Shown here: positions 2,311-63,196 of the stretch, one piece after another
Layout of the letters: the number at the start of each line of letters is the position of its first letter
Numbering within the stretch: position 1 is the stretch's first letter
Assembly (NCBI RefSeq): GCF_036507355.1
Contig: NZ_AP027877.1
Length of the DNA stretch: 64,000 nucleotides
Reading direction: 5' to 3' (one strand)
Origin: Escherichia coli
GTDB lineage: Bacteria > Pseudomonadota > Gammaproteobacteria > Enterobacterales > Enterobacteriaceae
Made by a program: the position numbers and the translations under genes
The notes under the pieces: model-generated
Databases searched by the model: none
What the model was told of the DNA's origin: nothing
Seen by the model: the letters and a program-made list of their open reading frames with translations, nothing else

Positions 2311-2446
2311 TACAACCAGTTCTTGCGCTTAAAGTACAGATACGGTGCCAGGCCCGCGAGGATCATAAAGATAATCGCGCCTGGGTAGCCGAAACTCCAC
2401 TTCAGTTCTGGCATAAACTCAAAGTTCATGCCATAGCTGGAGGCAA
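2310..2446 (-). pseudogene. detached corA 3'-terminal remnant (last 44 codons incl. GMN motif); left copy of a 137-bp imperfect direct repeat
   Basis: ORF 2310..2513 ends ...[44 protein letters not shown], identical in amino acids to the C-terminus of full corA at 4017..; upstream part of the ORF is unrelated or decayed. Confidence 0.7.
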
Positions 2447-2637
2447 TCCGCGTAGGAAAAAGTTTCCTAATCGGTAAATTCAACATATTGTTATTAACAA
2501 TGGGCAAAACCAATCAATAACGAGATTCCCTTCGGAATGTAATAAAAATGTGAAGTGTACTTCTTTTTTAAAATTTTTTATCCTAGCATTTGTTCTCAAA
2601 TTGATATTGAGCTTAAATATAACCAAGGAAAATGTAA

Positions 2638-3345
2638 ATGAATAACACATTACTTCCATCAATTAATATTCCCTGTACACTTTTCGAAACTATTAGTTTA
2701 TTTGATGATTATTCTGCTGATGATATGCAATATGGTGATATGGTAGAACAAGATTTTCTCTCACTCGGCCTAAGCGATATCTCAGCAAAAGTTGATCCTT
2801 ACAGACTTATTAAATACCATTTCCCTGGCCCAGGTTCTGTTAATGTTGTTTTTAGTGCCTCAAGTTCCGGAACAAAAATATCACAACGTGAATGCACTGA
2901 TATTTTATTTGCAGAAATGAAAGAACTAGCAAAAAATTTTTCCTTTTTTGGACAATATAAAACACTTATCGAAGATCTGATTGAACATTTTAGATATGGA
3001 AATGGCAGCAATTTTCATAGCCAACAATTAAATTTATCTTTTCATGAAAAGATAAATAAATATGGTTATAATAGTCCAATACGAATAATCAAAGAATGTA
3101 TCGAAAATGGCATTAATTCAACTCCCTCGACAGGATACCAACCTCTTATCCTGCAAAGCATTAAAACCAAATTACTTTCATCAAGACTAAATAAATTTAA
3201 TGACTTCGAGGACAGTTTTAATGGCTTAGGAATCAGTATTCATGATATTTCAGCTCAAAAAAATATCTCTTTTAAGCTTTCAAAAATACGCTATAGGGTG
3301 GAGTGCGACAATTCATTTTGTAGCACAGGACCACTTCGGTCTTGA
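2638..3345 (+). CDS. hypothetical protein, AT-rich cassette gene A; probably frameshifted, C-terminus may continue in +1 frame to 3487
   Basis: 235-aa ORF with AAGGA RBS ~8 nt upstream; ~30% GC; overlapping +1-frame ORF 3242..3487 ends in an ATGA overlap with gene B. Confidence 0.5.
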   Translation: MNNTLLPSINIPCTLFETISLFDDYSADDMQYGDMVEQDFLSLGLSDISAKVDPYRLIKYHFPGPGSVNVVFSASSSGTKISQRECTDILFAEMKELAKNFSFFGQYKTLIEDLIEHFRYGNGSNFHSQQLNLSFHEKINKYGYNSPIRIIKECIENGINSTPSTGYQPLILQSIKTKLLSSRLNKFNDFEDSFNGLGISIHDISAQKNISFKLSKIRYRVECDNSFCSTGPLRS

Positions 3346-3483
3346 TGTAACTGATATCAAAAACAAGACTTACAGCAAATATAGATTTTTTCGCATATGG
3401 TTCTTTTTACAACGGCATAAAGGCTTTGCTTTCAAACCTTTTTTCACCAATTTTAACACTATCGAAAGAATCGAAAATTATCT

Positions 3484-3975
3484 ATGAAAAGCAAACGCCA
3501 GAAAATTATATTATGTTTATTTCTTCTATGCTGTATCTATAATTTATGGACATTGCGTCCTGTACAGATTTTGTATACATACTCTGATGCTGGCAATTCA
3601 GTCTTTCTGGTCGTTGATCATCTGCCATGGACTGACAGCGATAAAATAAATTGGTATCTGAAGCATCAGAATGAAATTAAAAATCAACATCCCCTACCAG
3701 AAGGTAGTTGGCATACCTGGTATGTCATTGATATCGGTAATGGCTTCACTGACTATAAAAAATATATCGAAGGGCCGTATGAAGATCTCTACTGTTTCCC
3801 GACAATTAAGAGCAATGATAATTGCATCGTGAAAAATTACTTAATGGTTATTAATGAATACCCTTATCGTAACACTCATATTGGTATTAACGATTTTACT
3901 GAGTATCAATTAACACAAGAAAATAAAATAGAGCGAGTTTTCAATCCGCATGACTTTAAAAAAGACAATTTTTAG
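3484..3975 (+). CDS. small protein with N-terminal hydrophobic anchor/signal, cassette gene B
   Basis: 163-aa ORF, N-terminus KIILCLFLLCCIYNLW is hydrophobic; start overlaps upstream frame by ATGA; AT-rich. Confidence 0.55.
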   Translation: MKSKRQKIILCLFLLCCIYNLWTLRPVQILYTYSDAGNSVFLVVDHLPWTDSDKINWYLKHQNEIKNQHPLPEGSWHTWYVIDIGNGFTDYKKYIEGPYEDLYCFPTIKSNDNCIVKNYLMVINEYPYRNTHIGINDFTEYQLTQENKIERVFNPHDFKKDNF

Positions 3976-3980
3976 AAATA

Positions 3981-4010
3981 AGCCGGATAAAAAAATAGCT
4001 TTATCCGGCA
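3981..4010. repeat. REP-like palindromic hairpin (GCCGGATAAA...TTTATCCGGC) between cassette gene B and corA stop
   Basis: 10-bp inverted repeat seen directly; motif resembles E. coli REP units. Confidence 0.4.
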
Positions 4011-4016
4011 CTCATA

Positions 4017-4967
4017 TTACAACCAGTTCTTCCGCTTAAAGTACAGATACGGTGCCAGGCCCGCGAGGATCATAAAGATAATCGCGCCTGGGTAGCCGAA
4101 ACTCCACTTCAGTTCTGGCATAAACTCAAAGTTCATCCCGTAGCTGGAAGCAACCAGCGTTGGCGGCAGGAACACGACGGATACCACCGAGAAAATTTTG
4201 ATGATGCGGTTCTGCTCGATGTTGATAAAACCCATTGCCGCCTGCATCAGGAAGTTCACCTTCTGGAACAGGGATTCGTTATGCGGCAGCAGGGATTCGA
4301 TATCTCGCAGGATTTCACGCGCCTGCTCCAGTTGCCCACCCGGTAAGCGTGCTTTACGTACCAGGAAGTTGAGAGCGCGCTGGGTATCCATCAGACACAG
4401 GCGAACTTTCCAGCCGATATCTTCCAGTTCCGCCAGAGTGGAGAGCGCCTCGTCGTACTCATCGCCCTGATGCCCTTCCATAATCACCCGGCTCAATTGC
4501 TCCAGGTCGCTATAGATATTTTCAATTTCATCTGCCAACTGTTCGATTTTGGTTTCGAACAAATCCAGCAGCAACTCGTAGGCGTTACCGTCTACCATCG
4601 ACTGGCTACGGGCACGCATACGATATAGACGAAAAGCGGGCAGTTCACGCTCACGCAGAGTAAACAGACGACCATCACGGATGGTAAATGCCACAGTGGA
4701 GTTACCGGCGTGATCTTCCGCATCTTCAAAGAAGAAGAAGGAGTGAATATGCAGGCCGTCATCGTCTTCAAAGAAACGTGCCGATGCTTCGATGTCTTCC
4801 AGTTCCGGGCGGGTTGCCAGGCTCTGGCCAAGTTCAGATTGTACGCGCAGTCGCTCGTCGTCGTCCGGTTCGACAAGATCAATCCATACTGCATTTACAA
4901 GGGGTTGTGACTCTTCGACTTCCAGCCGGGTCAGTCGGTTATTTTCCAGTTGAAATGCGCTCAGCAT
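4017..4967 (-). CDS. corA: Mg2+/Co2+ transporter CorA
   Basis: ORF 4017..4982; native start [10 protein letters not shown] gives 316 aa; GMN motif and two C-terminal TM segments present. Confidence 0.95.
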
Positions 4968-5336: not shown

Positions 5337-6101
5337 ATGGCGCATCGGCTACTCATTGGTAAAGGAATGATCACCTTGAATCTCAAACGGATTTTTCTCG
5401 CCCTCACCTTACTTCCCTTGTTTGTTGTTGCCGCTGATGATTGCGCACTCTCAGATCCGACGCTGACCGTACAGGCGTATACCGTTAATCCTCAAACAGA
5501 GCGGGTGAAAATGTACTGGCAAAAAGCCAATGGCGAAGCGTGGGGAACTTTACATGCTCTGCTGGCGGATATGAATAGTCAGGGTCAGGTGCAGATGGCG
5601 ATGAACGGCGGCATCTATGATGAAAGCTATACGCCGCTCGGTTTGTACATCGAAAACGGTCAGCAGAAGGTGGCGTTAAATCTCGCTTCAGGTGAAGGGA
5701 ATTTCTTTATCCGTCCTGGCGGCGTGTTTTATGTCGCGGGAGATAAAGTCGGCATCGTTCGTCTGGATGCCTTCAAAACCAGTAAAGAGATTCAGTTTGC
5801 GGTGCAGTCAGGGCCAATGTTGATGGAAAACAGTGTAATTAATCCGCGTATTCATCCCAACGTCGCCTCACGTAAAATTCGTAACGGTGTTGGGATTAAT
5901 AAACATGGGAATGCCGTGTTTTTGTTGAGCCAGCAGGCGACAAATTTTTATGATTTTGCCTGTTATGCCAAAGCGAAACTGAACGTTGAGCAGCTGCTTT
6001 ATCTTGATGGCACGATTTCACATATGTATATGAAAGGCGGGGCAATCCCGTGGCAACGCTATCCTTTTGTCACCATGATTTCCGTCGAGCGGAAAGGTTA
6101 A
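5337..6101 (+). CDS. yigE: DUF2233-family protein YigE
   Basis: 254-aa ORF with signal-like N-terminus; expected position between corA and uvrD. Confidence 0.8.
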   Translation: MAHRLLIGKGMITLNLKRIFLALTLLPLFVVAADDCALSDPTLTVQAYTVNPQTERVKMYWQKANGEAWGTLHALLADMNSQGQVQMAMNGGIYDESYTPLGLYIENGQQKVALNLASGEGNFFIRPGGVFYVAGDKVGIVRLDAFKTSKEIQFAVQSGPMLMENSVINPRIHPNVASRKIRNGVGINKHGNAVFLLSQQATNFYDFACYAKAKLNVEQLLYLDGTISHMYMKGGAIPWQRYPFVTMISVERKG

Positions 6102-6183
6102 GCATTGTACACTCGAGGAGGCCAGACAAACTGGGGCTGGCTACACAGCTGGAAAATCATCAGATAAATGAAGGGAAACAAAA

Positions 6184-7086
6184 ATGAAAAAAACGCTCGC
6201 AACGTTATTTTTATTAACGTGTCTGGGATCATCATCCGCTTATGCGGATAACGCTTTGATTTTACAAACGGATTTTAGCCTGAAAGATGGCGCCGTCTCG
6301 GCGATGAAAGGGGTCGCATTCGGTGTTGACCATAATCTTAAAATATTTGATTTAACACACGAAATTCCACCGTATAACATCTGGGAAGGCGCATACCGCC
6401 TGTATCAGACCGCCAGCTACTGGCCGCAAGGTTCGGTGTTTGTCAGCGTGGTCGATCCGGGCGTGGGGACTGACCGTAAATCGGTGGTGCTGAAAACCAA
6501 AAACGGTCAATACTTCGTTTCACCGGATAACGGTACGCTCACTTTGGTGGCGCAATCGCTGGGTATTGAGAGCGTCCGGCAAATCGATGAAAAAACCAAC
6601 CGCCTGAACGGTTCCGAAAAGTCATATACCTTCCACGGTCGTGATGTGTATGCCTACACCGGTGCGCGTCTGGCTTCCGGGGCGATCACGTTCGAACAGG
6701 TGGGGCCAGAGCTTCCTGCAAAAGTTGTCGAACTGCCTTATCAGAAAGCCAAAGCAACAAAAGGTGAAGTAAAGGGCAATATCCCGATTCTCGATATTCA
6801 GTACGGCAACGTCTGGAGCAATATCAGCGACGAGTTGCTGAATCAGGCAGGAATCAAACTCAACGATACGTTATGTGTGACCATTTCCGAAGGTTCCGAG
6901 AAAAAATACGAAGGGAAAATGCCGTATGTCGCCAGCTTCGGCGATGTGCCGGAAGGACAGCCGATGGTGTATCTGAACAGCTTATTGAATGTTTCCGTGG
7001 CGCTGAATATGGATAATTTCGCGCAGAAACATCAGGTTGCGTCTGGTGCTGACTGGAATATTGATGTGAAGAAATGTGATAAGTAA
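6184..7086 (+). CDS. secreted S-adenosyl-L-methionine hydroxide adenosyltransferase family protein (DUF62 / fluorinase-chlorinase-like fold)
   Basis: 300-aa ORF; N-terminal signal peptide MKKTLATLFLLTCLGSSSAYA; family-typical motifs ILQTDFS..DGAVSAMKGV and DLTHEIPPYN. Confidence 0.7.
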   Translation: MKKTLATLFLLTCLGSSSAYADNALILQTDFSLKDGAVSAMKGVAFGVDHNLKIFDLTHEIPPYNIWEGAYRLYQTASYWPQGSVFVSVVDPGVGTDRKSVVLKTKNGQYFVSPDNGTLTLVAQSLGIESVRQIDEKTNRLNGSEKSYTFHGRDVYAYTGARLASGAITFEQVGPELPAKVVELPYQKAKATKGEVKGNIPILDIQYGNVWSNISDELLNQAGIKLNDTLCVTISEGSEKKYEGKMPYVASFGDVPEGQPMVYLNSLLNVSVALNMDNFAQKHQVASGADWNIDVKKCDK

Positions 7087-7130
7087 GGTGCTGATGCCGG
7101 ATGCGGTGTGGCGCACCGCATCCCGCAACG

Positions 7131-12754: not shown

Positions 12755-12942
12755 TATGGATTGCCTGTAAAGTTCATCGCTTTCTGCTTTCTATCATCGC
12801 AGGAGAAGGCGTAAAAGCAAGCGTTTAGCGACTCTTTATGAAGTCTGAAAAGTGAGGAAATGCTGCGAGTATAACGCTTACTCGTGGGGATTTATGTTTT
12901 GCTGGTAGTTTCGTGATCGGCACCTCGCGCCAGGATGGCTTT

Positions 12943-14421
12943 ATGCACTATCGCAATGTGGTTTGTTTGTTGGCTTGTTCGTTGTTTTTATCGTCGGCAT
13001 GGGGATGTCGGCTTTCCGCACCTGAACATAATATTTACCAGAAACAGGGAAAAGGCGTGGTGTACCTGCGCCCTTATAAAGAAACAAATCTTTCTCTACC
13101 TGACGTGAATTACAAGAGTTTGCGTCGGTTACCCAATTTATTAATAGACCCGACAACACTAGACGAATGGGATAAAGAACCGCCTCAGACTGATTTGACA
13201 ACCGACTACCTCTATGAGGGCGCACAGGCCTGGTATCCTCATTATTCCTGGTATAGCGATGGTCGCAATATCCTCTACGCGGGTGAAGTTGTGCAAAACC
13301 CTCCCGGCACACCTCCCGTCGATGTCGCCTCGTTCAAGGCATGGGGTGATTTTGCTGCAGATAAACACAGTCTCTATTTTGAAGGCAAGCGCACCGATGA
13401 CAATGGTGGGAGAAATAGCTTAGATATCAAAACGCTGCATCAGGTGGAATTCCGGCCTCCCTGGGCTCCTGACTTACTGGGGCTGATATTACGTGACGCT
13501 AATTTCTTGTATATCAATGGGCATCGCCTCGCTGACCCCGAGAGTTTCCGTGTGCTGGCGCAGAAGTCCTGGGATCAGCGAGGAAAGTTTTCCACCACGT
13601 TTAACCCCTGCGTTGCCGTACCATTCGGCCCCTGGGATACCCTGGCTCGTACACGGACCAAAATCCTGATCAACGGCGAACAGCTTGATGCCGACCCGGA
13701 CACCTTTTCCGTCGTGCGCTGGATGCCCGGCTCACTCTTGACCTGGCGTGATAAAAACGGGCTACAGCGTAAAGTCCTCGACAAGGAAAATCTGGCGTGG
13801 GATGAGGATTTAACAAAGCACTGTCTGGATTTTTCTCTGCTGGAAAAGAAAGTGTTCTGGCGTCAGGGGCCTGACTGTAAACAGGAAGAATTACCGGGAC
13901 TCGATCCGGAACAGTTTCACCCCATCAGTGATGCTGTCGCACAGTATCAGGACTCGCTTTATACCATCATCGAAACAGAGTCTGGTGACCGCAAGCTGGA
14001 GATCGTGAAACTTGATGATCCCAATCTTATTATCAACAAACGTTTCAACGCCGGGAAACGCCACGGCTATTTACTTACGCGTGCCGAAGGGTGGCCATAC
14101 CATTCCGGTTTACACGTGTTTGAATCTGACGGACCGCTGATCTTACTGGATAACCGCTCTCCGGATGAACGCGAAGCCCATCTTAATGACCATCCCTTTT
14201 TGCGCAGATGGTATGCCCGCGATAACCGCTACGTTTACAGCTTTGATGGCGCGCAGCTCTGGCGATACCGCACCGCGGATCCGAAACAAGTTCGCTTAAT
14301 CTGGAAGGAACAACATTCGGGATATGGCTACGGGGTAAATTACAAAACGGGATATCTGGACGGAAAAATTACCGATGACGGCGAATTTATTCCTGCCCCG
14401 CGCAATGAGGCGACAAAATGA
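12943..14421 (+). CDS. secreted repeat protein, paralog A (DKNYY-like repeats); accessory
   Basis: ORF 12913..14421; ATG at 12943 with AGGA upstream; hydrophobic N-terminus; motifs DKHSLYF, DANFLYI, DNRYVYSF; strong similarity to downstream paralog. Confidence 0.6.
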   Translation: MHYRNVVCLLACSLFLSSAWGCRLSAPEHNIYQKQGKGVVYLRPYKETNLSLPDVNYKSLRRLPNLLIDPTTLDEWDKEPPQTDLTTDYLYEGAQAWYPHYSWYSDGRNILYAGEVVQNPPGTPPVDVASFKAWGDFAADKHSLYFEGKRTDDNGGRNSLDIKTLHQVEFRPPWAPDLLGLILRDANFLYINGHRLADPESFRVLAQKSWDQRGKFSTTFNPCVAVPFGPWDTLARTRTKILINGEQLDADPDTFSVVRWMPGSLLTWRDKNGLQRKVLDKENLAWDEDLTKHCLDFSLLEKKVFWRQGPDCKQEELPGLDPEQFHPISDAVAQYQDSLYTIIETESGDRKLEIVKLDDPNLIINKRFNAGKRHGYLLTRAEGWPYHSGLHVFESDGPLILLDNRSPDEREAHLNDHPFLRRWYARDNRYVYSFDGAQLWRYRTADPKQVRLIWKEQHSGYGYGVNYKTGYLDGKITDDGEFIPAPRNEATK

Positions 14422-15743
14422 ATGGTCAAATAATCACTGTTGCACTCATCCTGTTGGGGCACATATTTCTGACGCCTGCTGTACAGGCCATAGGGTTCGA
14501 CTATTACAATGATCACGGTGTTATGTCTTACGGTAAAGGTTATGGGGAGGATGAGAAAATCATTGCCCAATTTCCGAAGATGAACAGAGCCGATTTGCGC
14601 CTTGTGACAAATATATCCGGGGAGCGGGAGTTAGTGGAAGGCTATATACCCACCGATGAAATAAGCATAAAAAATGAGGAATACCACTGGGTGACAGACG
14701 GCCGCGTTATTCTCTGGCGTGGCAAAATCGTTAGCAATCCACCGGGAACACCCACTGTCGATATTGCCAGCTTTCAGGCTATGGGCCGCTTCGCGGTCGA
14801 TAAATATAGCCTCTATTTTGATGGACAGCGCACCGAAAGTAATAGCGGCGCGTCACGTGTTGATCTGGCGACACTAAAAGCTATCGAAGGTAACTCTACC
14901 ACGCTGGTGGATAGTAAAAATCTCTATTTGTCCGGTCGACGTCAGGGGAGCAGCAGTAATGTTACTGTATTAGAAAAAAGATGGTGGGGTATTAATCCAC
15001 GTCTTATGAGTGTAAACAGAAATTTGTATTCCAATGATCTGCTTATCCGCAGTGGGCAGAATATTTATTTAAATGCCGTTCACCTTACAGCGAATGCAGA
15101 CTCATTTGAGATAATTCGCTGGATATCTCATTCACTGCTGGTTTTTCGCGACAATAAGGGTCTGCATCGTTATCCCTTTGGGCAATTGTCTGGCAAAGCG
15201 ATACCCGTAGATGATGACGTCTCTTTTGAAGTAGGGGAAAGTCGCGTTCGCTGGCGTAAACAGCTCACGCCCGACCGTCAGTGGAGCAAGTGGATAGACC
15301 TACCAGGTATTGAACCTGAACAATTTCATCTGATTACTGGCAATATTGCGCAATATAAAGATCGGTTGTATGTAACAAAATTATCGACATTTGGTGAAGA
15401 CCAGCTTGAGATAATCCCGCTGGATACGCCAGACCTGGTCATTGATCACTCATTTAATAGCGGCAAACAGCATGCTTATTTTATCCGCCAATTACGGTCA
15501 AAGAGCGTGCAAATTATTCCAGTTAACGGTCCGCTAACTAAAAACGATCGCTTCGCTTATGACGATCGCAATGTTTATACATGGACCGATACAGAGGTAA
15601 GGATTACACCCTCCCCCTGCCCGGCGAAAACACGCGTCAGAGAAGAGAATGTGCGCGAACTTCACAACAGAGACATTATTATTCCGTTGACGGATGAATC
15701 ATGCCGTAACGCAGCCGCAGAGGTGCAAACTTTGAAGCCCTGA
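14418..15743 (+). CDS. secreted repeat protein, paralog B (DKNYY-like repeats); accessory
   Basis: 441-aa ORF; signal peptide ending AVQA; ATGA overlap with paralog A; shared blocks NPPGTP.VD.ASF and EPEQFH..IAQY.D.LY. Confidence 0.6.
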   Translation: MNGQIITVALILLGHIFLTPAVQAIGFDYYNDHGVMSYGKGYGEDEKIIAQFPKMNRADLRLVTNISGERELVEGYIPTDEISIKNEEYHWVTDGRVILWRGKIVSNPPGTPTVDIASFQAMGRFAVDKYSLYFDGQRTESNSGASRVDLATLKAIEGNSTTLVDSKNLYLSGRRQGSSSNVTVLEKRWWGINPRLMSVNRNLYSNDLLIRSGQNIYLNAVHLTANADSFEIIRWISHSLLVFRDNKGLHRYPFGQLSGKAIPVDDDVSFEVGESRVRWRKQLTPDRQWSKWIDLPGIEPEQFHLITGNIAQYKDRLYVTKLSTFGEDQLEIIPLDTPDLVIDHSFNSGKQHAYFIRQLRSKSVQIIPVNGPLTKNDRFAYDDRNVYTWTDTEVRITPSPCPAKTRVREENVRELHNRDIIIPLTDESCRNAAAEVQTLKP

Positions 15744-23854: not shown

Positions 23855-25510
23855 ATGGAATTTTCGTTTTCACCCAAACGTCTTGTTGTTGCTGTCGCCG
23901 CCGCTCTTCCTCTCATGGCCAGCGCAGCAGATACCCCGTCAACTGCCACCGCACGCAAAGGCTTTGCCGGATACGATCACCCAAACCAGTATCTGGTTAA
24001 ACCGGCGACCACTATTGCCGACAATATGATGCCAGTAATGCAGCATCCGGCGCAGGATAAAGAAACCCAGCAGAAGCTGGCAGAACTTGAGAAAAAAACC
24101 GGTAAGAAACCGAATGTGGTTGTTTTCTTGCTGGACGATGTGGGCTGGATGGACGTCGGTTTTAACGGTGGCGGCGTGGCGGTGGGTAACCCTACACCAG
24201 ATATCGACGCCGTTGCCAGCCAGGGGCTGATTTTAACTTCGGCGTATTCTCAACCAAGCTCTTCCCCAACCCGCGCCACCATTCTCACCGGACAATACTC
24301 CATCCACCACGGCATTCTGATGCCGCCAATGTACGGGCAACCGGGCGGGCTGCAAGGGTTAACCACGCTGCCGCAGTTGCTGCACGATCAGGGCTACGTC
24401 ACTCAGGCCATCGGGAAATGGCATATGGGGGAAAACAAAGAGTCGCAGCCGCAGAACGTTGGCTTTGATGATTTCCGTGGCTTTAACTCGGTGTCTGATA
24501 TGTACACCGAATGGCGCGACGTTCACGTAAACCCGGAAGTGGCCCTGAGTCCGGACCGTTCTGAATACATCAAGCAATTACCATTTAGCAAAGATGACGT
24601 TCATGCGGTGCGCGGCGGCGAACAACAGGCCATTGCCGACATTACGCCGAAATATATGGAAGATCTGGATCAACGCTGGATGGAATATGGCGTTAAGTTC
24701 CTCGACAAGATGGCGAAGAGTGATAAGCCTTTCTTCCTCTATTACGGCACTCGCGGCTGTCACTTCGATAACTACCCGAACGCCAAATATGCGGGTAGCT
24801 CTCCGGCACGCACCTCGTATGGCGACTGCATGGTGGAAATGAACGATGTGTTCGCTAATCTGTATAAAGCACTGGAGAAAAACGGTCAGCTTGATAACAC
24901 GCTGATTGTCTTTACCTCCGATAACGGACCGGAAGCCGAAGTACCGCCGCACGGACGCACACCGTTCCGTGGTGCGAAAGGATCTACCTGGGAAGGCGGC
25001 GTTCGCGTTCCGACTTTCGTGTACTGGAAAGGGATGATCCAACCGCGTAAATCTGACGGTATTGTCGATCTGGCAGATCTCTTCCCTACCGCGCTGGATC
25101 TGGCAGGGCATCCTGGCGCGAAAGTGGCGAATTTAGTGCCGAAAACCACCTTTATCGATGGTGTGGACCAGACATCTTTCTTCCTGGGAACAAATGGTCA
25201 GTCTAACCGTAAGGCCGAGCACTACTTCCTCAACGGTAAACTCGCTGCTGTGCGTATGGATGAATTCAAGTATCACGTCCTGATTCAGCAACCTTACGCT
25301 TATACCCAGAGCGGATATCAGGGTGGATTCACCGGCACAGTAATGCAAACAGCCGGATCGTCGGTGTTTAACCTGTACACCGATCCGCAGGAGAGCGACT
25401 CCATCGGCGTGCGCCATATTCCGATGGGTGTACCGCTACAGACCGAAATGCACGCGTATATGGAGATCCTGAAAAAGTATCCACCACGCGCGCAGATTAA
25501 ATCTGATTAA
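23855..25510 (+). CDS. aslA: arylsulfatase AslA
   Basis: 551-aa ORF with signal peptide and sulfatase-type region ([13 protein letters not shown]: Cys to be converted to formylglycine). Confidence 0.9.
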
Positions 25511-25519
25511 GCCGGCGAT

Positions 25520-25660
25520 ATCGCTACATCGGGCCACACTGACCTTGCCGGATGCGGCGTGAACGCCTTATCCGGCCTACAAGCCTTGCAAATTCAATAA
25601 ATTGTAACGTTCTGTAGGCCGGATAAGATGCGGTCAGCATCGCATCCGGCAATCAACCGC
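25520..25660. repeat. REP/BIME palindromic units between convergent aslA and aslB
   Basis: GCCGGATGCGGCGTGAACGCCTTATCCGGCCTACA and inverted partner TGTAGGCCGGATAAG...CATCCGGC. Confidence 0.55.
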
Positions 25661-25676: not shown

Positions 25677-26822
25677 CTACTTACTCACCACCAGCAAATG
25701 CGCCTGCATAATGTCGCTGGCCGGGCGACCGTGCGCCAGCAAATCAGCCATTGCTTTAAGATATGGCGGTAGATGGCGGAAATAACGCTGATACCCGGCA
25801 CACAAATAATTCAGCCCCGGTTTGCCGCTGGCATCGAGCATGAAGCGGTGTTTCGGGCAGCCTCCCCAACATGCTTTTAACACGTTACAACTGCGACACT
25901 GCGCCGGTAACTGCTTAAATTTATCTTCACCAAACACCTGCTGTTGCGGGGAATCGATCATTTCTGCAATTGTTTGCTGGTGCATATTCCCCAGTCGATA
26001 TTGCGGATAAACATAGTGATCGCAGGCGTAAACGTCGCCATTGTGCTCAACAATCACCGAGCGCCCACAGGTTGGCTGATGATGGCAAACCGCACCCGGC
26101 GCACCGACAAAATTGGCAAACGCCCATTCGATATTCATCACGAAAATCTTGCCGACGTCGCATTTGATCCAGTGGTCGAATATCGCCACCAGAAATTCAC
26201 CAAATTCATCGGGGCGCACCGACCATTCCGTCAGTTCCCCCTGAATATCACCAGGCGCATGTAGTTTCAGTCCATCGCGGGCAGCTGTTTCATCAGCCAG
26301 GCGCTCGACCACCGGAATAAACTGGATGAATTCGACTCCCGCATCGCACAAAAAATCATATACCTGCAACGGTTGCTGCGCGCTGGTGCGATTAACGCAG
26401 ACCAGCACGTTATAGTCGACATGATGTTTTTGCAGGAACGTCAGGGCACGCATCACCAGCTTATGCGTGGGTCTGCCACCTTTAGTCACGCGATATTGAT
26501 TGTGGATCTCAGCCGGACCATCCAGCGATAACCCAACAAGAAAATGATTTTCTGCCAGAAATGCACACCATTCATCATCGAGCAGCACGCCGTTAGTCTG
26601 GAAGCTGTTACTTATCTTCCTGCCAGCACCATATTTCGCCTGTAGCGCTACGGCACGGCGGTAAAACTCCAGCCCGAGTAGCGTTGGTTCGCCGCCCTGC
26701 CAGGTAAAAGCCACTTCGTTTTGCGGTTCGCTGGCAGCGATATAGTGACGGACATACGCTTCCAGCGTGTCATCGTCCATATGCGTGACTGGCTTTTCGC
26801 GGTAAAGGGATTGTTTTTCGAG
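25677..26822 (-). pseudogene. aslB: aslB (anaerobic sulfatase-maturating radical SAM enzyme), 3' portion downstream of the IS insertion
   Basis: ORF 25677..26849 matches AslB from ...LEKQSLYREKPVTHMDDD onward; its first ~9 codons are IS-derived; the CxxxCxxC triad is absent from this fragment. Confidence 0.8.
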
Positions 26823-27891
26823 GCTGAATTTACAATCCAAGTGCAACAAAAAAAGAAGTACTCATCAACTAGAATATAATTTTGTTTCCACACAAAAACC
26901 ACTTCCAAATGATGAGTACTTCCTACCGACATCTTACAATAAACGAGCGAGAAAAGATAATGATTTTACTCGCACAGGGCAAAAAACAAGCAGAAATTGC
27001 CAAAGCACTGGGACGTAGCTCCAGCACCATTTCTCGCGAGCTGAAACGACACGCTCTAGAAAGCTACAGTGCAACGAACGCACAAAACAGCTATTTGAAG
27101 CATCGTCAAAATAGCAAAGCACAGCGCAAATTAGAGCAGCCTGAATATTTCAATTTGGTGCAAGAAAAGTTTCTGACAGAAAACTGGTCGCCCGAACAAA
27201 TCAGCGCACGATTAAAATTGGAAAAATCTGAATTATCCATTAGTTATTCAACCATTTATCGTGGTATTTATTCAGGGTTGTTTGATATAGGCGAACGCAA
27301 AGCCAGTCGCAAACTGCGCCACAAAGGCAAAACACGGCATACAAAAAATCATCATGAAAAACGTGGCAAAATTCAGATATCCAACCATTTGAACGACCGT
27401 CCCATTTCGGCGCAAAATCGCAGTCGCTTTGGACATTGGGAAGCCGATACCGTACTGGGTAAAGCGGGTGGAGCTTGTTTGCTGACGCTGACGGAACGCA
27501 AAAGTCGTTTTGAGTTGGTGAAGAAAATTCCTGCCAAAAAAGCCGAAGCAGTCCAAAAAGCCATGATTGAATTGCTGGATTCACATATATTGCGGTCAAT
27601 TACGCCAGACCGTGGTAAAGAATTTGCCCAACATCGTTTGGTAACAGAAGCACTGGGTGTAGAATTTTACTTCCCCGAGCCGCATCAACCGTGGACACGG
27701 GGAACGAATGAAAATACAAATGGGTTACTTCGTGAATACTTTCCGAAGCACCAAGACATCAATCAGTGGAGCGAAGTTGATATTCAACAGGTGATCAATA
27801 AACTGAATTTACGACCACGTAAATGTTTAGGTTGGAAAACACCTTATGAAGTTTACTTCAAAAAATCGTTGCACTTGGTTTGACAATTCAA
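26823..27891 (+). mobile_element. IS30-family insertion sequence (ISApl1-like), ~1.07 kb, imperfect ~24-bp terminal inverted repeats, 2-3 bp target duplication (GAG/AG)
   Basis: Left end GCTGAATTTACAATCCAAGTGCAAC; right end (reverse complement) TTGAATTGTCAAACCAAGTGCAAC; GAG flanks both ends; flanks rejoin into continuous aslB; ends +/-2 bp. Confidence 0.8.
26882..27883 (+). CDS. IS30-family DDE transposase
   Basis: 333-aa ORF with N-terminal HTH (LAQGKKQAEIAKALGRSSSTISRELKRH) and C-terminal DDE region (HWEADTV...TPDRGKEF...TRGTNENTNGLLREYFPK); 307 aa if started at the internal Met. Confidence 0.85.
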   Translation: MFPHKNHFQMMSTSYRHLTINEREKIMILLAQGKKQAEIAKALGRSSSTISRELKRHALESYSATNAQNSYLKHRQNSKAQRKLEQPEYFNLVQEKFLTENWSPEQISARLKLEKSELSISYSTIYRGIYSGLFDIGERKASRKLRHKGKTRHTKNHHEKRGKIQISNHLNDRPISAQNRSRFGHWEADTVLGKAGGACLLTLTERKSRFELVKKIPAKKAEAVQKAMIELLDSHILRSITPDRGKEFAQHRLVTEALGVEFYFPEPHQPWTRGTNENTNGLLREYFPKHQDINQWSEVDIQQVINKLNLRPRKCLGWKTPYEVYFKKSLHLV

Positions 27892-27894
27892 GAG

Positions 27895-27984
27895 ATAAAA
27901 ACAGTAGTCACAGTTCAGATTACAATCGGAACCGCTCGGTTTCGCCATCACATGAAAAGCACGCGTTGGAACCTGTTGCAGCAT
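27895..27984 (-). pseudogene. aslB: aslB 5' fragment (N-terminal ~30 codons with radical-SAM Cys triad) separated by the IS
   Basis: minus strand encodes MLQQVPTRAFHVMAKPSGSDCNLNCDYCFYL, then the IS end. Confidence 0.75.
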
Positions 27985-28094
27985 GGTCGCTCCTTGCCTG
28001 AAGTCATCCTTCAATACGTTAAGGGCGAAATCATACCGTGGGGCAATGAGTTATTACGGGCGTTTATTGCGAAGGGAGGGTGACGAAATGCACA

Positions 28095-28128
28095 GAAAAC
28101 AAAAAACCCCGCCGAAGCGGGGTTCAAA
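28095..28128 (-). terminator. rho-independent terminator of the argX-hisR-leuT-proM tRNA operon
   Basis: minus strand CCCCGCTTCGGCGGGG hairpin followed by TTTTTTGTTTT. Confidence 0.6.
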
Positions 28129-28130
28129 AT

Positions 28131-28207
28131 TGGTCGGCGAGAGAGGATTCGAACCTCCGACCCACTGGTCCCAAACCAGTTGCGCTACCAAGCTGCGCTA
28201 CTCGCCG
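28131..28207 (-). tRNA. proM: tRNA-Pro (anticodon UGG)
   Basis: cloverleaf read on minus strand: CGGCGAGTAGCGCAGC...anticodon loop TTTGGGA...CCA end. Confidence 0.9.
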
Positions 28208-28249
28208 AAATACTGCTTTTTGAATTTTTAGTTCAATTCTTTAAAGTCG

Positions 28250-28336
28250 TGGTGCGAGGGGGGGGACTTGAACCCCCACGTCCGTAAGGACACTAACACC
28301 TGAAGCTAGCGCGTCTACCAATTCCGCCACCTTCGC
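28250..28336 (-). tRNA. leuT: tRNA-Leu (anticodon CAG), long variable arm
   Basis: minus strand GCGAAGGTGGCGGAATTGGTAGAC...anticodon CAG...CACCA. Confidence 0.9.
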
Positions 28337-28355
28337 ATTGTCACAACTTCTAATA

Positions 28356-28433
28356 ATGGGGTGGCTAATGGGATTCGAACCCACGACAACTGGAATCACA
28401 ATCCAGGGCTCTACCAACTGAGCTATAGCCACC
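28356..28433 (-). tRNA. hisR: tRNA-His (anticodon GUG)
   Basis: minus strand GGTGGCTATAGCTCAGTTGGTAGAGC...anticodon GTG...CCA. Confidence 0.9.
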
Positions 28434-28490
28434 ACTACAAATCTTGTTACGCGGTATTACTACCACCGCAGCTCAAGCGCCGGGACTAAA

Positions 28491-28567
<77 letters not shown>

Positions 28568-63035: not shown

Positions 63036-63111
63036 TGGCAGGGGCGGAGAGACTCGAACTCCCAACACCCGGTTTTGGAGACCGGTGCTCTACCAATTGA
63101 ACTACGCCCCT
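63036..63111 (-). tRNA. trpT: tRNA-Trp (anticodon CCA, wild type)
   Basis: minus strand AGGGGCGTAGTTCAATTGGTAGAGC...anticodon loop CTCCAAA...CCA. Confidence 0.9.
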
Positions 63112-63119
63112 AATTAGGG

Positions 63120-63196
63120 TGGCGGAACGGACGGGACTCGAACCCGCGACCCCCTGCGTGACAGGCAGGTATTCTAACCGACTGAACTACCGCTCC
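63120..63196 (-). tRNA. aspT: tRNA-Asp (anticodon GUC)
   Basis: minus strand GGAGCGGTAGTTCAGTCGGTTAGAATACC...anticodon GTC...CCA. Confidence 0.9.

What the first reader, a model, noticed from the sequence alone, without database searches (positions are those of the whole stretch)
26823..27984. IS30-family (ISApl1-like) element inserted in aslB with a 3-bp target duplication, orphaning aslA
A ~1.07 kb element with imperfect 24-bp terminal inverted repeats and GAG on both flanks splits aslB after codon ~30. The N-terminal piece with the radical-SAM Cys triad (CNLNCDYC) lies right of the IS on the minus strand; the rest of aslB lies to the left and lacks any Cys cluster. Removing the IS and one GAG rejoins the reading frame exactly. 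Size, family, AT-rich target and a 307-aa product from the internal Met fit ISApl1, the element that mobilises mcr-1. AslA requires formylglycine maturation, so it may be inactive unless another maturase substitutes.
Basis: partly seen in the sequence, partly recalled or inferred. Interest (0 to 1): 0.5.

Follow-up and report, generated by a model that had tools for sequence, protein, structure and literature searches.

The report
ISApl1 insertion disrupting aslB hot spot

Summary
The core of the finding holds. Window 26823-27892 (+) is a complete 1070-bp ISApl1, 100% identical to reference copies. These include the copy on a plasmid of the Actinobacillus pleuropneumoniae strain (AP76) in which ISApl1 was first described. 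It lies inside codon 31 of aslB on the minus strand. Removing it gives a 411-aa anaerobic sulfatase maturase that exists uninterrupted, with exactly this sequence, in other E. coli genomes.

- The target duplication is 2 bp (AG), not 3 bp. The "GAG" on the right is the last IS base plus AG.
- The inverted repeats are 27 bp with 6 mismatches.
- The large aslB fragment does keep its SPASM cysteine clusters.

There is no second ISApl1 and no mcr-1/pap2 in the 64 kb. The neighbouring aslA is intact and is a Ser-type sulfatase (SSPTR). Its dependence on a radical-SAM maturase is therefore plausible but untested.

New here: ISApl1 sits in the same CGAG tetramer of aslB (TGTTTTT-CGAG-ATAAAAACA) in six other public genomes. 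It occurs in both orientations, with two different duplications (AG, CG), on six flank haplotypes. This looks like a natural insertion hot spot.

Verdict: a known element, an ordinary gene disruption, low interest apart from the hot spot and the implied mcr-1 ecology.

The parts
26823..27892 (+). Complete ISApl1 insertion sequence (1070 bp, 41.7% G+C against 51.5% for the window)
   Evidence: 100% identity over 1-1070 to ISApl1 copies in E. coli. 100% over 1069 nt to 443 plasmid records, including A. pleuropneumoniae AP76. Ends fixed by comparing 9 copies and an inverted copy at the same site. G+C.
26823..26849 (+). Left inverted repeat (IRL), 27 bp: GCTGAATTTACAATCCAAGTGCAACAA
   Evidence: 6 mismatches to IRR in 27 bp. 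This matches the published description (PMC5404521, read).
27866..27892 (+). Right inverted repeat (IRR), 27 bp; reverse complement CTTGAATTGTCAAACCAAGTGCAACGA
26909..27883 (+). Transposase gene. 324 aa from the ATG at 26909 (the start RefSeq uses, WP_012478345.1); 307 aa from the ATG at 26960
   Evidence: Annotation of the identical copy in 17MR471. NCBIfam NF033563 IS30 transposase, 309 bits against a cut-off of 80. Pfam HTH_38 plus rve. The HTH_38 match starts 4 residues after the 26909 start, so the 307-aa version would lack the first ~13 positions of that domain.
26855..26922 (+). Stable hairpin in the transposase leader; its 13-bp stem pairs with the AUGAUG start at 26909-26914
   Evidence: dG -22.4 kcal/mol, z = -7.6, 0 of 200 shuffles as stable. 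Inverted repeat I2. Function inferred, not tested.
26821..26822 (.). Left copy of the 2-bp target-site duplication (AG)
27893..27894 (.). Right copy of the 2-bp target-site duplication (AG)
26812..26822 (.). Left half of the target: TGTTTTT plus central tetramer CGAG
   Evidence: repeat I1 extends into the flanks. Fits the published ISApl1 preference for a GC-rich tetramer inside an AT-rich imperfect palindrome (PMC9927407).
27895..27903 (.). Right half of the target: AT plus AAAAACA, the reverse complement of TGTTTTT
27893..27984 (-). aslB 5' fragment: codons 1-30 plus 2 nt of codon 31, carrying the radical-SAM C21x3C25x2C28 motif. It reads on into IRR to give a 43-aa fusion peptide ending at 27853
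   Evidence: The same 43-aa peptide is called in three draft genomes.
25677..26822 (-). aslB 3' fragment: codons 31-411 plus the stop codon. It holds the rest of the radical-SAM barrel and the SPASM domain, with no native start
   Evidence: Pfam Radical_SAM and SPASM. RefSeq marks the equivalent piece in 17MR471 as a pseudogene 'missing N-terminus'.
23855..25510 (+). aslA, intact 551-aa arylsulfatase with an N-terminal signal-like sequence and the Ser-type motif S136-S-P-T-R. It is convergent with aslB
   Evidence: Pfam Sulfatase, 1.6e-71. Motif. The exact protein is found in many genomes next to an intact 411-aa aslB.

Best explanation
A single, intact and presumably active copy of ISApl1 (IS30 family; DDE transposase with an N-terminal helix-turn-helix) has transposed into the chromosomal gene aslB of an E. 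coli strain.

As established for ISApl1 and IS30, the element leaves its donor as a circle with 2 bp between the abutted ends. It then integrates with a 2-bp staggered cut. Here that cut duplicated AG inside the GC-rich tetramer CGAG, which sits at the centre of the AT-rich imperfect palindrome TGTTTTT-CGAG-ATAAAAACA.

The insertion separates the first 30 codons of aslB, which carry the CX3CX2C ligands of the radical-SAM [4Fe-4S] cluster, from the other 381 codons. The gene is therefore a null allele. What remains is a 43-aa fusion peptide and a 3' fragment without a start codon.

The site is a preferred landing site. The same tetramer carries ISApl1 in six other genomes, in both orientations and with two different duplications.

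Shown here: the identity, ends, duplication, gene split, empty site and recurrence. Inferred: the transposition mechanism, current activity of the copy, loss of AslB function, and any effect on the Ser-type sulfatase AslA.
For: Identity
- 100% nucleotide identity to ISApl1.
- IS30-family transposase model, 309 bits against a cut-off of 80.
- HTH_38 and rve domains.
- 27-bp inverted repeats with 6 mismatches and a 2-bp duplication, as published (PMC5404521).

Ends and duplication
- Nine copies compared.
- Inverted copy in E423 at the same site.

Gene split
- The rejoined ORF of 411 aa passes the TIGR03942 anaerobic sulfatase maturase model, 515.8 bits against 349.45.
- It aligns to the C. perfringens anSME structure 4K36 at 2.4e-64, with the Cys triad at the N-terminus.
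- The empty site is colinear in 5420 of 5426 genomes.
- The exact protein occurs uninterrupted elsewhere.

Hot spot
- 17MR471: forward, AG.
- Three draft genomes: forward, AG.
- E423: inverted, AG.
- EPSSH018: inverted, CG.
- Right flanks differ by 14-51 sites per 3 kb in all pairs but one.
- The target fits the published motif of a GC tetramer in an AT-rich palindrome (PMC9927407).
- Besides the aslB site (now split by the IS), the window holds only two TTTTT-N4-8-AAAAA sites (three overlapping matches).
Against: - Nothing contradicts the identification.
- Activity of this copy, and loss of AslB function, were not measured.
- The five forward-orientation AG alleles could in part be one event spread by homologous recombination. 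The 218 bp next to the IS are identical in about 40% of all E. coli, so they cannot discriminate.
- Recurrence could also reflect selection rather than target preference.
Confidence: 0.95

Rival explanations
1. The element is one end of the composite transposon Tn6330 (ISApl1-mcr-1-pap2-ISApl1), or a decayed remnant of it, so the locus would carry colistin resistance.
For: ISApl1 is the element that mobilises mcr-1. The only complete genome with the same allele, 17MR471, has a chromosomal Tn6330 and 12 ISApl1 copies (PMC8805313, PMC10916398).
Against: The window has exactly one copy. blastn with mcr-1/pap2 and tblastn with MCR-1 from pKP2509-MCR find nothing in the 64 kb. The IS is bounded on both sides by aslB sequence with a clean 2-bp duplication.
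Confidence: 0.02
2. The shared aslB::ISApl1 alleles are not independent hits on a hot spot. One ancestral insertion would have spread between lineages by homologous recombination or by descent.
For: Five genomes share the same position, orientation and duplication. No difference lies within 96 bp to the left and 124 bp to the right of the IS between the window and 17MR471.
Against: The inverted AG copy (E423) and the inverted CG copy (EPSSH018) must be separate events. E423 and draft GCA_014892455 have identical 3-kb flanks but opposite IS orientation. The near flanks are invariant in about 40% of E. coli anyway. The wider flanks differ by 2-5%.
Confidence: 0.2
3. Recurrent disruption of aslB is driven by selection: loss of the maturase would be advantageous in ISApl1/mcr-1-bearing strains. 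Target preference of the transposase would not be the cause.
For: Seven genomes have the gene disrupted. EPSSH018 has in addition lost most of aslA.
Against: All insertions fall within one 4-bp tetramer of a 1.2-kb gene. Selection for loss of function would scatter them. The site fits the known ISApl1 target motif.
Confidence: 0.07
4. Assembly artefact: an IS copy wrongly placed in aslB when repeats were resolved.
For: IS copies are a classic source of misassembly. Short-read drafts break exactly at this IS.
Against: Both junctions are precise, with a 2-bp duplication. The same junctions occur in independent complete and draft assemblies.
Confidence: 0.02

Closest known systems
ISApl1 (IS30 family; first described in Actinobacillus pleuropneumoniae AP76, Tegetmeyer et al. 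2008, as cited in PMC5404521)
   Same: Identical sequence over 1070 bp, 27-bp inverted repeats with 6 mismatches, the same transposase (WP_012478345.1), a 2-bp duplication, and a GC tetramer in an AT-rich target.
   Different: Nothing in the element itself. Only its location (chromosomal aslB) is particular.
aslB::ISApl1 allele of E. coli 17MR471 (NZ_CP051158.1, pseudogene HF575_RS06605)
   Same: Same position, orientation and duplication. RefSeq already annotates it as an interrupted anaerobic sulfatase maturase.
   Different: Different host background: 403 differences in 14 kb, and 4-5% divergence across aslA and most of aslB, none within about 100 bp of the IS. There are also three accessory-gene differences within the window.
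Tn6330 (ISApl1-mcr-1-pap2-ISApl1)
   Same: Contains the same IS.
   Different: The window has a solitary IS with no mcr-1 or pap2.
IS30 hot-spot targeting (palindromic consensus; from my own knowledge of Olasz and colleagues' work, and as summarised in PMC9927407)
   Same: An imperfect palindrome with AT-rich arms and a GC-biased centre, hit repeatedly and in both orientations.
   Different: The aslB site has not, as far as the library search shows, been described as an ISApl1 hot spot. Preference was inferred from database recurrence, not measured.
Anaerobic sulfatase-maturating enzymes (AtsB of Klebsiella; anSME of Clostridium perfringens, PDB 4K36)
   Same: The rejoined AslB has the CX3CX2C motif and the SPASM auxiliary-cluster cysteines, and it passes TIGR03942.
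   Different: As encoded in the window, the gene is split and cannot give a full-length enzyme.

Membership tests
ISApl1 / IS30 family insertion sequence | DDE transposase matching the IS30-family model | tested here: met
   NF033563, 309 bits against a cut-off of 80, covering profile positions 1-267 of 267. The Pfam rve match is below its gathering score (29 against 32.6), but HTH_38 is clear.
ISApl1 / IS30 family insertion sequence | Near-identity of the whole element to the reference ISApl1 | tested here: met
   100% over 1070 nt to annotated ISApl1 copies. 100% over 1069 nt to the AP76 plasmid copy, whose next base is also G. ISfinder itself could not be queried.
ISApl1 / IS30 family insertion sequence | 1070 bp with 27-bp imperfect terminal inverted repeats (6 mismatches) | tested here: met
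   Published values in PMC5404521 and PMC8805313.
ISApl1 / IS30 family insertion sequence | 2-bp target-site duplication | tested here: met
   AG at 26821-22 and 27893-94. Seven of the nine other copies compared also have 2-bp repeats. The inverted copy at the same site excludes a 3-bp duplication.
ISApl1 / IS30 family insertion sequence | Transposition through a circular intermediate with a 2-bp spacer | not testable with these tools
   Known for ISApl1 from PMC9927407 and PMC10916398. It needs PCR across the abutted ends in the source strain.
Tn6330 composite transposon | Two directly repeated ISApl1 copies bracketing mcr-1 and pap2 | tested here: not met
   One copy only. No mcr-1/pap2 DNA or MCR-1 protein match in the window.
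Anaerobic sulfatase maturase (AslB / anSME, radical SAM-SPASM) | Full-length match to the equivalog model, with CX3CX2C and SPASM cysteines | tested here: met
   For the rejoined sequence only: TIGR03942, 515.8 bits against 349.45, and PDB 4K36 at 2.4e-64.
Anaerobic sulfatase maturase (AslB / anSME, radical SAM-SPASM) | Uninterrupted reading frame able to give the enzyme | tested here: not met
   Codons 1-30 and 31-411 are separated by 1072 bp: the 1070-bp IS plus the duplicated AG.
Ser-type arylsulfatase (AslA) | Sulfatase domain with an S-x-P-x-R formylglycine motif | tested here: met
   PF00884 at 1.6e-71. S136[10 protein letters not shown].
Ser-type arylsulfatase (AslA) | Formylglycine formation dependent on AslB; enzymatic activity | not testable with these tools
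   Needs a sulfatase assay and mass spectrometry of residue 136 in aslB+ and aslB::IS backgrounds.

The most novel reading that the evidence does not exclude
The 20-bp aslB site TGTTTTT-CGAG-ATAAAAACA is a natural high-affinity landing pad for the ISApl1 transposase. It has been hit independently at least three, and probably six, times in E. coli. Beyond that, convergent loss of the sulfatase maturase might be favoured in ISApl1/mcr-1-bearing gut lineages. The first half is likely (about 0.8). The probability given here is for the more novel second half, selection for aslB loss.
Probability: 0.07. Interest if true: 0.45.

Novelty: already known. Interest (0 to 1): 0.2.

Why it matters
- A chromosomal ISApl1 marks a strain that has been part of mcr-1 ecology. 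In 17MR471, the only complete genome with the same allele, there are 12 ISApl1 copies and a chromosomal Tn6330. The source genome should therefore be screened for mcr-1.
- The insertion itself inactivates a gene with no known phenotype in the laboratory, so its direct biological effect is probably small.
- The modest added value is the recurrent aslB site. It offers a defined natural target for studying how IS30-family transposases choose sites.
- The junctions would also be a simple PCR marker for ISApl1 activity in E. coli populations.

Tried and rejected
1. 3-bp GAG duplication with a 1069-bp element. Rejected from the constant ends of nine copies and the inverted E423 copy.
2. Shared origin of the window and 17MR471 alleles, inferred from the zone without differences around the IS. 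Rejected as uninformative, because the same 218 bp are identical in about 40% of E. coli genomes.
3. Tn6330 or mcr-1 in the window. Nothing found.
4. Look-up of the mechanical 390-aa TTG ORF that starts inside IRL. Not on record. The 43-aa N-terminal fusion peptide worked instead.
5. Literature on aslA/aslB. Searches gave nothing usable, and Benjdia et al. 2007 is not held. Statements about E. coli sulfatase maturation therefore rest on my own knowledge and are marked as such.
6. A sigma-70 consensus scan of the region found no more promoter-like sites than in shuffles and none upstream of the 26909 start. The transposase promoter was therefore not located.
7. The source strain could not be identified. 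The best complete E. coli genome is only 98.3% identical over the rejoined 2 kb.

Full report
**What is in the sequence**

The region 26800-28000 holds a 1.07-kb block of 41.7% G+C in a window of 51.5%. The block has imperfect terminal inverted repeats. Its one long ORF on the + strand matches Pfam HTH_38 and rve. It also scores 309 bits on the NCBIfam IS30-family transposase model, whose cut-off is 80.

On the minus strand the block is flanked by the two parts of aslB.
- The start codon is at 27984-27982. The first 30 codons (MLQQVPTRAFHVMAKPSGSDCNLNCDYCFY) run down to 27895, followed at 27894-27893 by CT, the first two bases of codon 31, which the insertion duplicated.
- The rest of the gene, from codon 31 to the stop, occupies 26822-25677.
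- Deleting the block and one repeat copy gives a 411-aa ORF.

**Identity of the element**

The block is ISApl1 itself, not merely ISApl1-like.
- A search of 72,556 plasmids finds 443 records at 99% identity or more. Many are 100% identical over the whole query, including plasmid APP7_A of Actinobacillus pleuropneumoniae AP76.
- In complete E. coli genomes the 1070-bp element is matched at 100% and annotated 'IS30-like element ISApl1 family transposase', WP_012478345.1.
- ISApl1 occurs in 234 of 5426 complete E. coli genomes, at 929 places, of which 634 are chromosomal.

**Exact ends and duplication**

I aligned the ends of nine other copies from different replicons. In all of them GC precedes TGAATT on the left and AG follows AATTCA on the right. 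Outside these bases the sequences differ.

The element is therefore GCTGAATT...CAATTCAAG. With these ends, seven of the nine other copies have 2-bp direct repeats. The two exceptions each have a mismatched flank: L003 shares its left flank (blaROB-1) with L002 but has a different right flank, and L008 has different genes (a fimbrial gene and dcuC) on its two sides.

In the window the repeat is AG (26821-22 and 27893-94). The 'GAG' on the right is the last IS base plus AG. The G at 26820 is native aslB sequence.

Strain E423 settles the point. It carries the IS inverted at the same position, with junctions ...TTTTTCGAG|CTTGAATT and TTCAGC|AGATAAAA. This fits a 2-bp AG duplication and cannot be reconciled with a 3-bp GAG one.

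With the corrected ends the inverted repeats are 27 bp with 6 mismatches. The 1070-bp length, the 27-bp repeats with six mismatches and the 2-bp duplications are exactly the published description (PMC5404521; PMC8805313).

**The interrupted gene**

- The rejoined product passes the equivalog model TIGR03942, anaerobic sulfatase maturase, at 515.8 bits against a cut-off of 349.45.
- It aligns over residues 12-392 with the Clostridium perfringens anSME structure 4K36 at E = 2.4e-64. The CX3CX2C triad aligns with that of the solved enzyme.
- The rejoined 2-kb DNA is colinear, in one piece, with 5420 of 5426 complete E. coli genomes, where it is annotated as intact aslB.
- The exact 411-aa protein is on record uninterrupted in other assemblies.

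The insertion lies inside codon 31 (Leu, CTC) and duplicates its first two bases. Two products are possible. One is a 43-aa fusion peptide of 30 AslB residues plus 13 read from codon 31 into IRR. The other is a 3' fragment with no native start.

It keeps the SPASM domain with the cysteines of the auxiliary clusters. What it lacks is the radical-SAM triad. By established knowledge of radical-SAM enzymes that triad is indispensable, so a null allele is a safe inference, though not a measurement.

**The neighbour aslA**

aslA (23855-25510, +) is intact at 551 aa with a clear Sulfatase domain. It is convergent with aslB, not co-transcribed. Its signature is S136[10 protein letters not shown], which makes it a Ser-type sulfatase. 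The identical AslA protein is widespread and sits next to an intact 411-aa aslB elsewhere.

The following is from my own knowledge; the key paper, Benjdia et al. 2007, is not held. Ser-type sulfatases are matured only by radical-SAM anSMEs of the AtsB/AslB type. The unidentified E. coli system that works without aslB and ydeM acts on Cys-type substrates. But E. coli AslA activity is not readily seen in the laboratory, and the paralogue ydeM lies outside the window. The consequence stays an inference.

**Is it part of an mcr-1 transposon?**

No. The window has one ISApl1 copy. Neither mcr-1/pap2 DNA nor MCR-1 protein, taken from pKP2509-MCR, matches anything in the 64 kb. mcr-1 elsewhere in the genome cannot be assessed.

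**The unexpected part: a recurrent site**

Only one complete genome, 17MR471, has the same allele. Its flanks differ from the window by 403 positions in 14 kb, reaching 4-5% across aslA and most of aslB, with none within about 100 bp of the IS. Three accessory-gene differences also fall inside the window.

The stretch without differences around the IS says nothing about a shared origin. Those 218 bp are identical in about 40% of all E. coli genomes.

That same search exposed strain E423, where the flanks are also split at this point. Junction-specific searches then found EPSSH018. A look-up of the 43-aa fusion peptide found three draft assemblies whose contigs end in the IS.

| Genome | Orientation (relative to the window) | Duplication |
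|---|---|---|
| window | forward | AG |
| 17MR471 | forward | AG |
| GCA_020168995 | forward | AG |
| GCA_045952475 | forward | AG |
| GCA_014892455 | forward | AG |
| E423 | inverted | AG (one SNP in the IS) |
| EPSSH018 | inverted | CG, 2 bp further left |

All seven insertions fall in the tetramer CGAG. The 3-kb right flanks differ pairwise by 14-51 positions, except E423 against GCA_014892455, which are identical although the IS has opposite orientations. At least three events are therefore certainly independent, and six flank haplotypes are involved.

The target, TGTTTTT-CGAG-ATAAAAACA, has 7-bp perfectly complementary AT-rich arms around a GC-rich centre. This is what has been reported for ISApl1 and the IS30 family: a GC-rich tetramer within AT-rich regions, and imperfect palindromes (PMC9927407; PMC5404521). 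Besides the aslB site, which the IS now splits, only two TTTTT-N4-8-AAAAA sites occur in the 64-kb window. I found no paper that mentions ISApl1 together with aslB.

Target preference explains the clustering in 4 bp of a 1.2-kb gene better than selection for loss of function would. Selection would scatter the insertions along the gene.

**Mechanism, and how sure each step is**

Shown here:
- the element's identity, ends and duplication;
- the split of aslB and the empty site in other genomes;
- recurrence at the same tetramer.

Established elsewhere and inferred here:
- copy-out through a circle with a 2-bp spacer, followed by integration with a 2-bp stagger (PMC9927407, PMC10916398);
- activity of this copy, suggested by its identity to copies shown to excise in 17MR471.

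Inferred only:
- the AslB null phenotype;
- failure to mature AslA.

**Verdict**

This is a known element making an ordinary gene disruption, and RefSeq already annotates the same allele in 17MR471. Interest is low. The points worth keeping are the corrected anatomy, the hot spot in aslB, and the hint that the source strain belongs to the mcr-1/ISApl1 pool.

Noticed in passing
window 26855-26922: A very stable hairpin in the ISApl1 leader (dG -22.4 kcal/mol, z -7.6). Its stem pairs with the AUGAUG at 26909-26914, the transposase start used by RefSeq. A TATAAT hexamer (26875-26880) lies in the loop. If transcription starts there, only read-through transcripts from outside would form the hairpin. 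That would be the classic way an IS avoids activation by host promoters. Not tested.
   Followed up: partly
L012 (E. coli EPSSH018, NZ_CP125889.1) 4710-4955: In the strain with the CG-duplication insertion, most of aslA is also deleted: window 23993-25607 has no counterpart. Both genes of the pair are therefore lost there.
   Followed up: partly
L011 (E423) versus L024 (GCA_014892455.1): The two genomes have identical 3-kb right flanks but carry ISApl1 at the same AG in opposite orientations. This suggests excision and re-insertion, or two hits, within one lineage. E423 has about 35 ISApl1 places.
   Followed up: partly
hits H26/H27 (PT62, LP5-1) and H140 (HS30-1), E. coli chromosomes: ISApl1 also interrupts acrR in at least two different strain backgrounds. 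This may be another recurrent site, or selection for AcrAB derepression.
   Followed up: no
window 2446-4017: A ~1.5-kb accessory segment, absent from 17MR471, lies between the yigG/yigF region and corA. It holds a DUF3289 ORF (2638-3345) that covers only profile positions 2-200 of 272, with the overlapping ORF 3242-3487 in another frame, so it is probably frameshifted. A DUF943 membrane-protein ORF follows (3484-3975).
   Followed up: partly
window 6184-7086: A 300-aa secreted-looking SAM hydroxide adenosyltransferase family protein (SAM_HAT_N plus SAM_HAT_C) lies between yigE and uvrD. In 17MR471 the window's ~1.0-kb interval (6101-7108) corresponds to only ~120 bp.
   Followed up: partly
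window 12913-15743: Two tandem paralogous ORFs (502 and 441 aa) with weak DKNYY-family matches lie between lptM and cyaY. 17MR471 has only a short DKNYY pseudogene remnant here, so the window has 2.57 kb more.
   Followed up: partly
window 25545-25652: An inverted-repeat, REP-like sequence (GCCGGATGCGGCG...CTTATCCGGCCTAC) in the aslA-aslB intergenic spacer. It matches itself on the opposite strand at 93% between strains.
   Followed up: no
window 28104-28567 and 63036-63196: The tRNA-Arg(ccg), His, Leu(cag) and Pro(tgg) genes lie in tandem on the minus strand, with a strong terminator hairpin (28104-28125) just upstream of aslB. tRNA-Asp and tRNA-Trp lie near the window end, probably the tail of an rRNA operon.
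   Followed up: no
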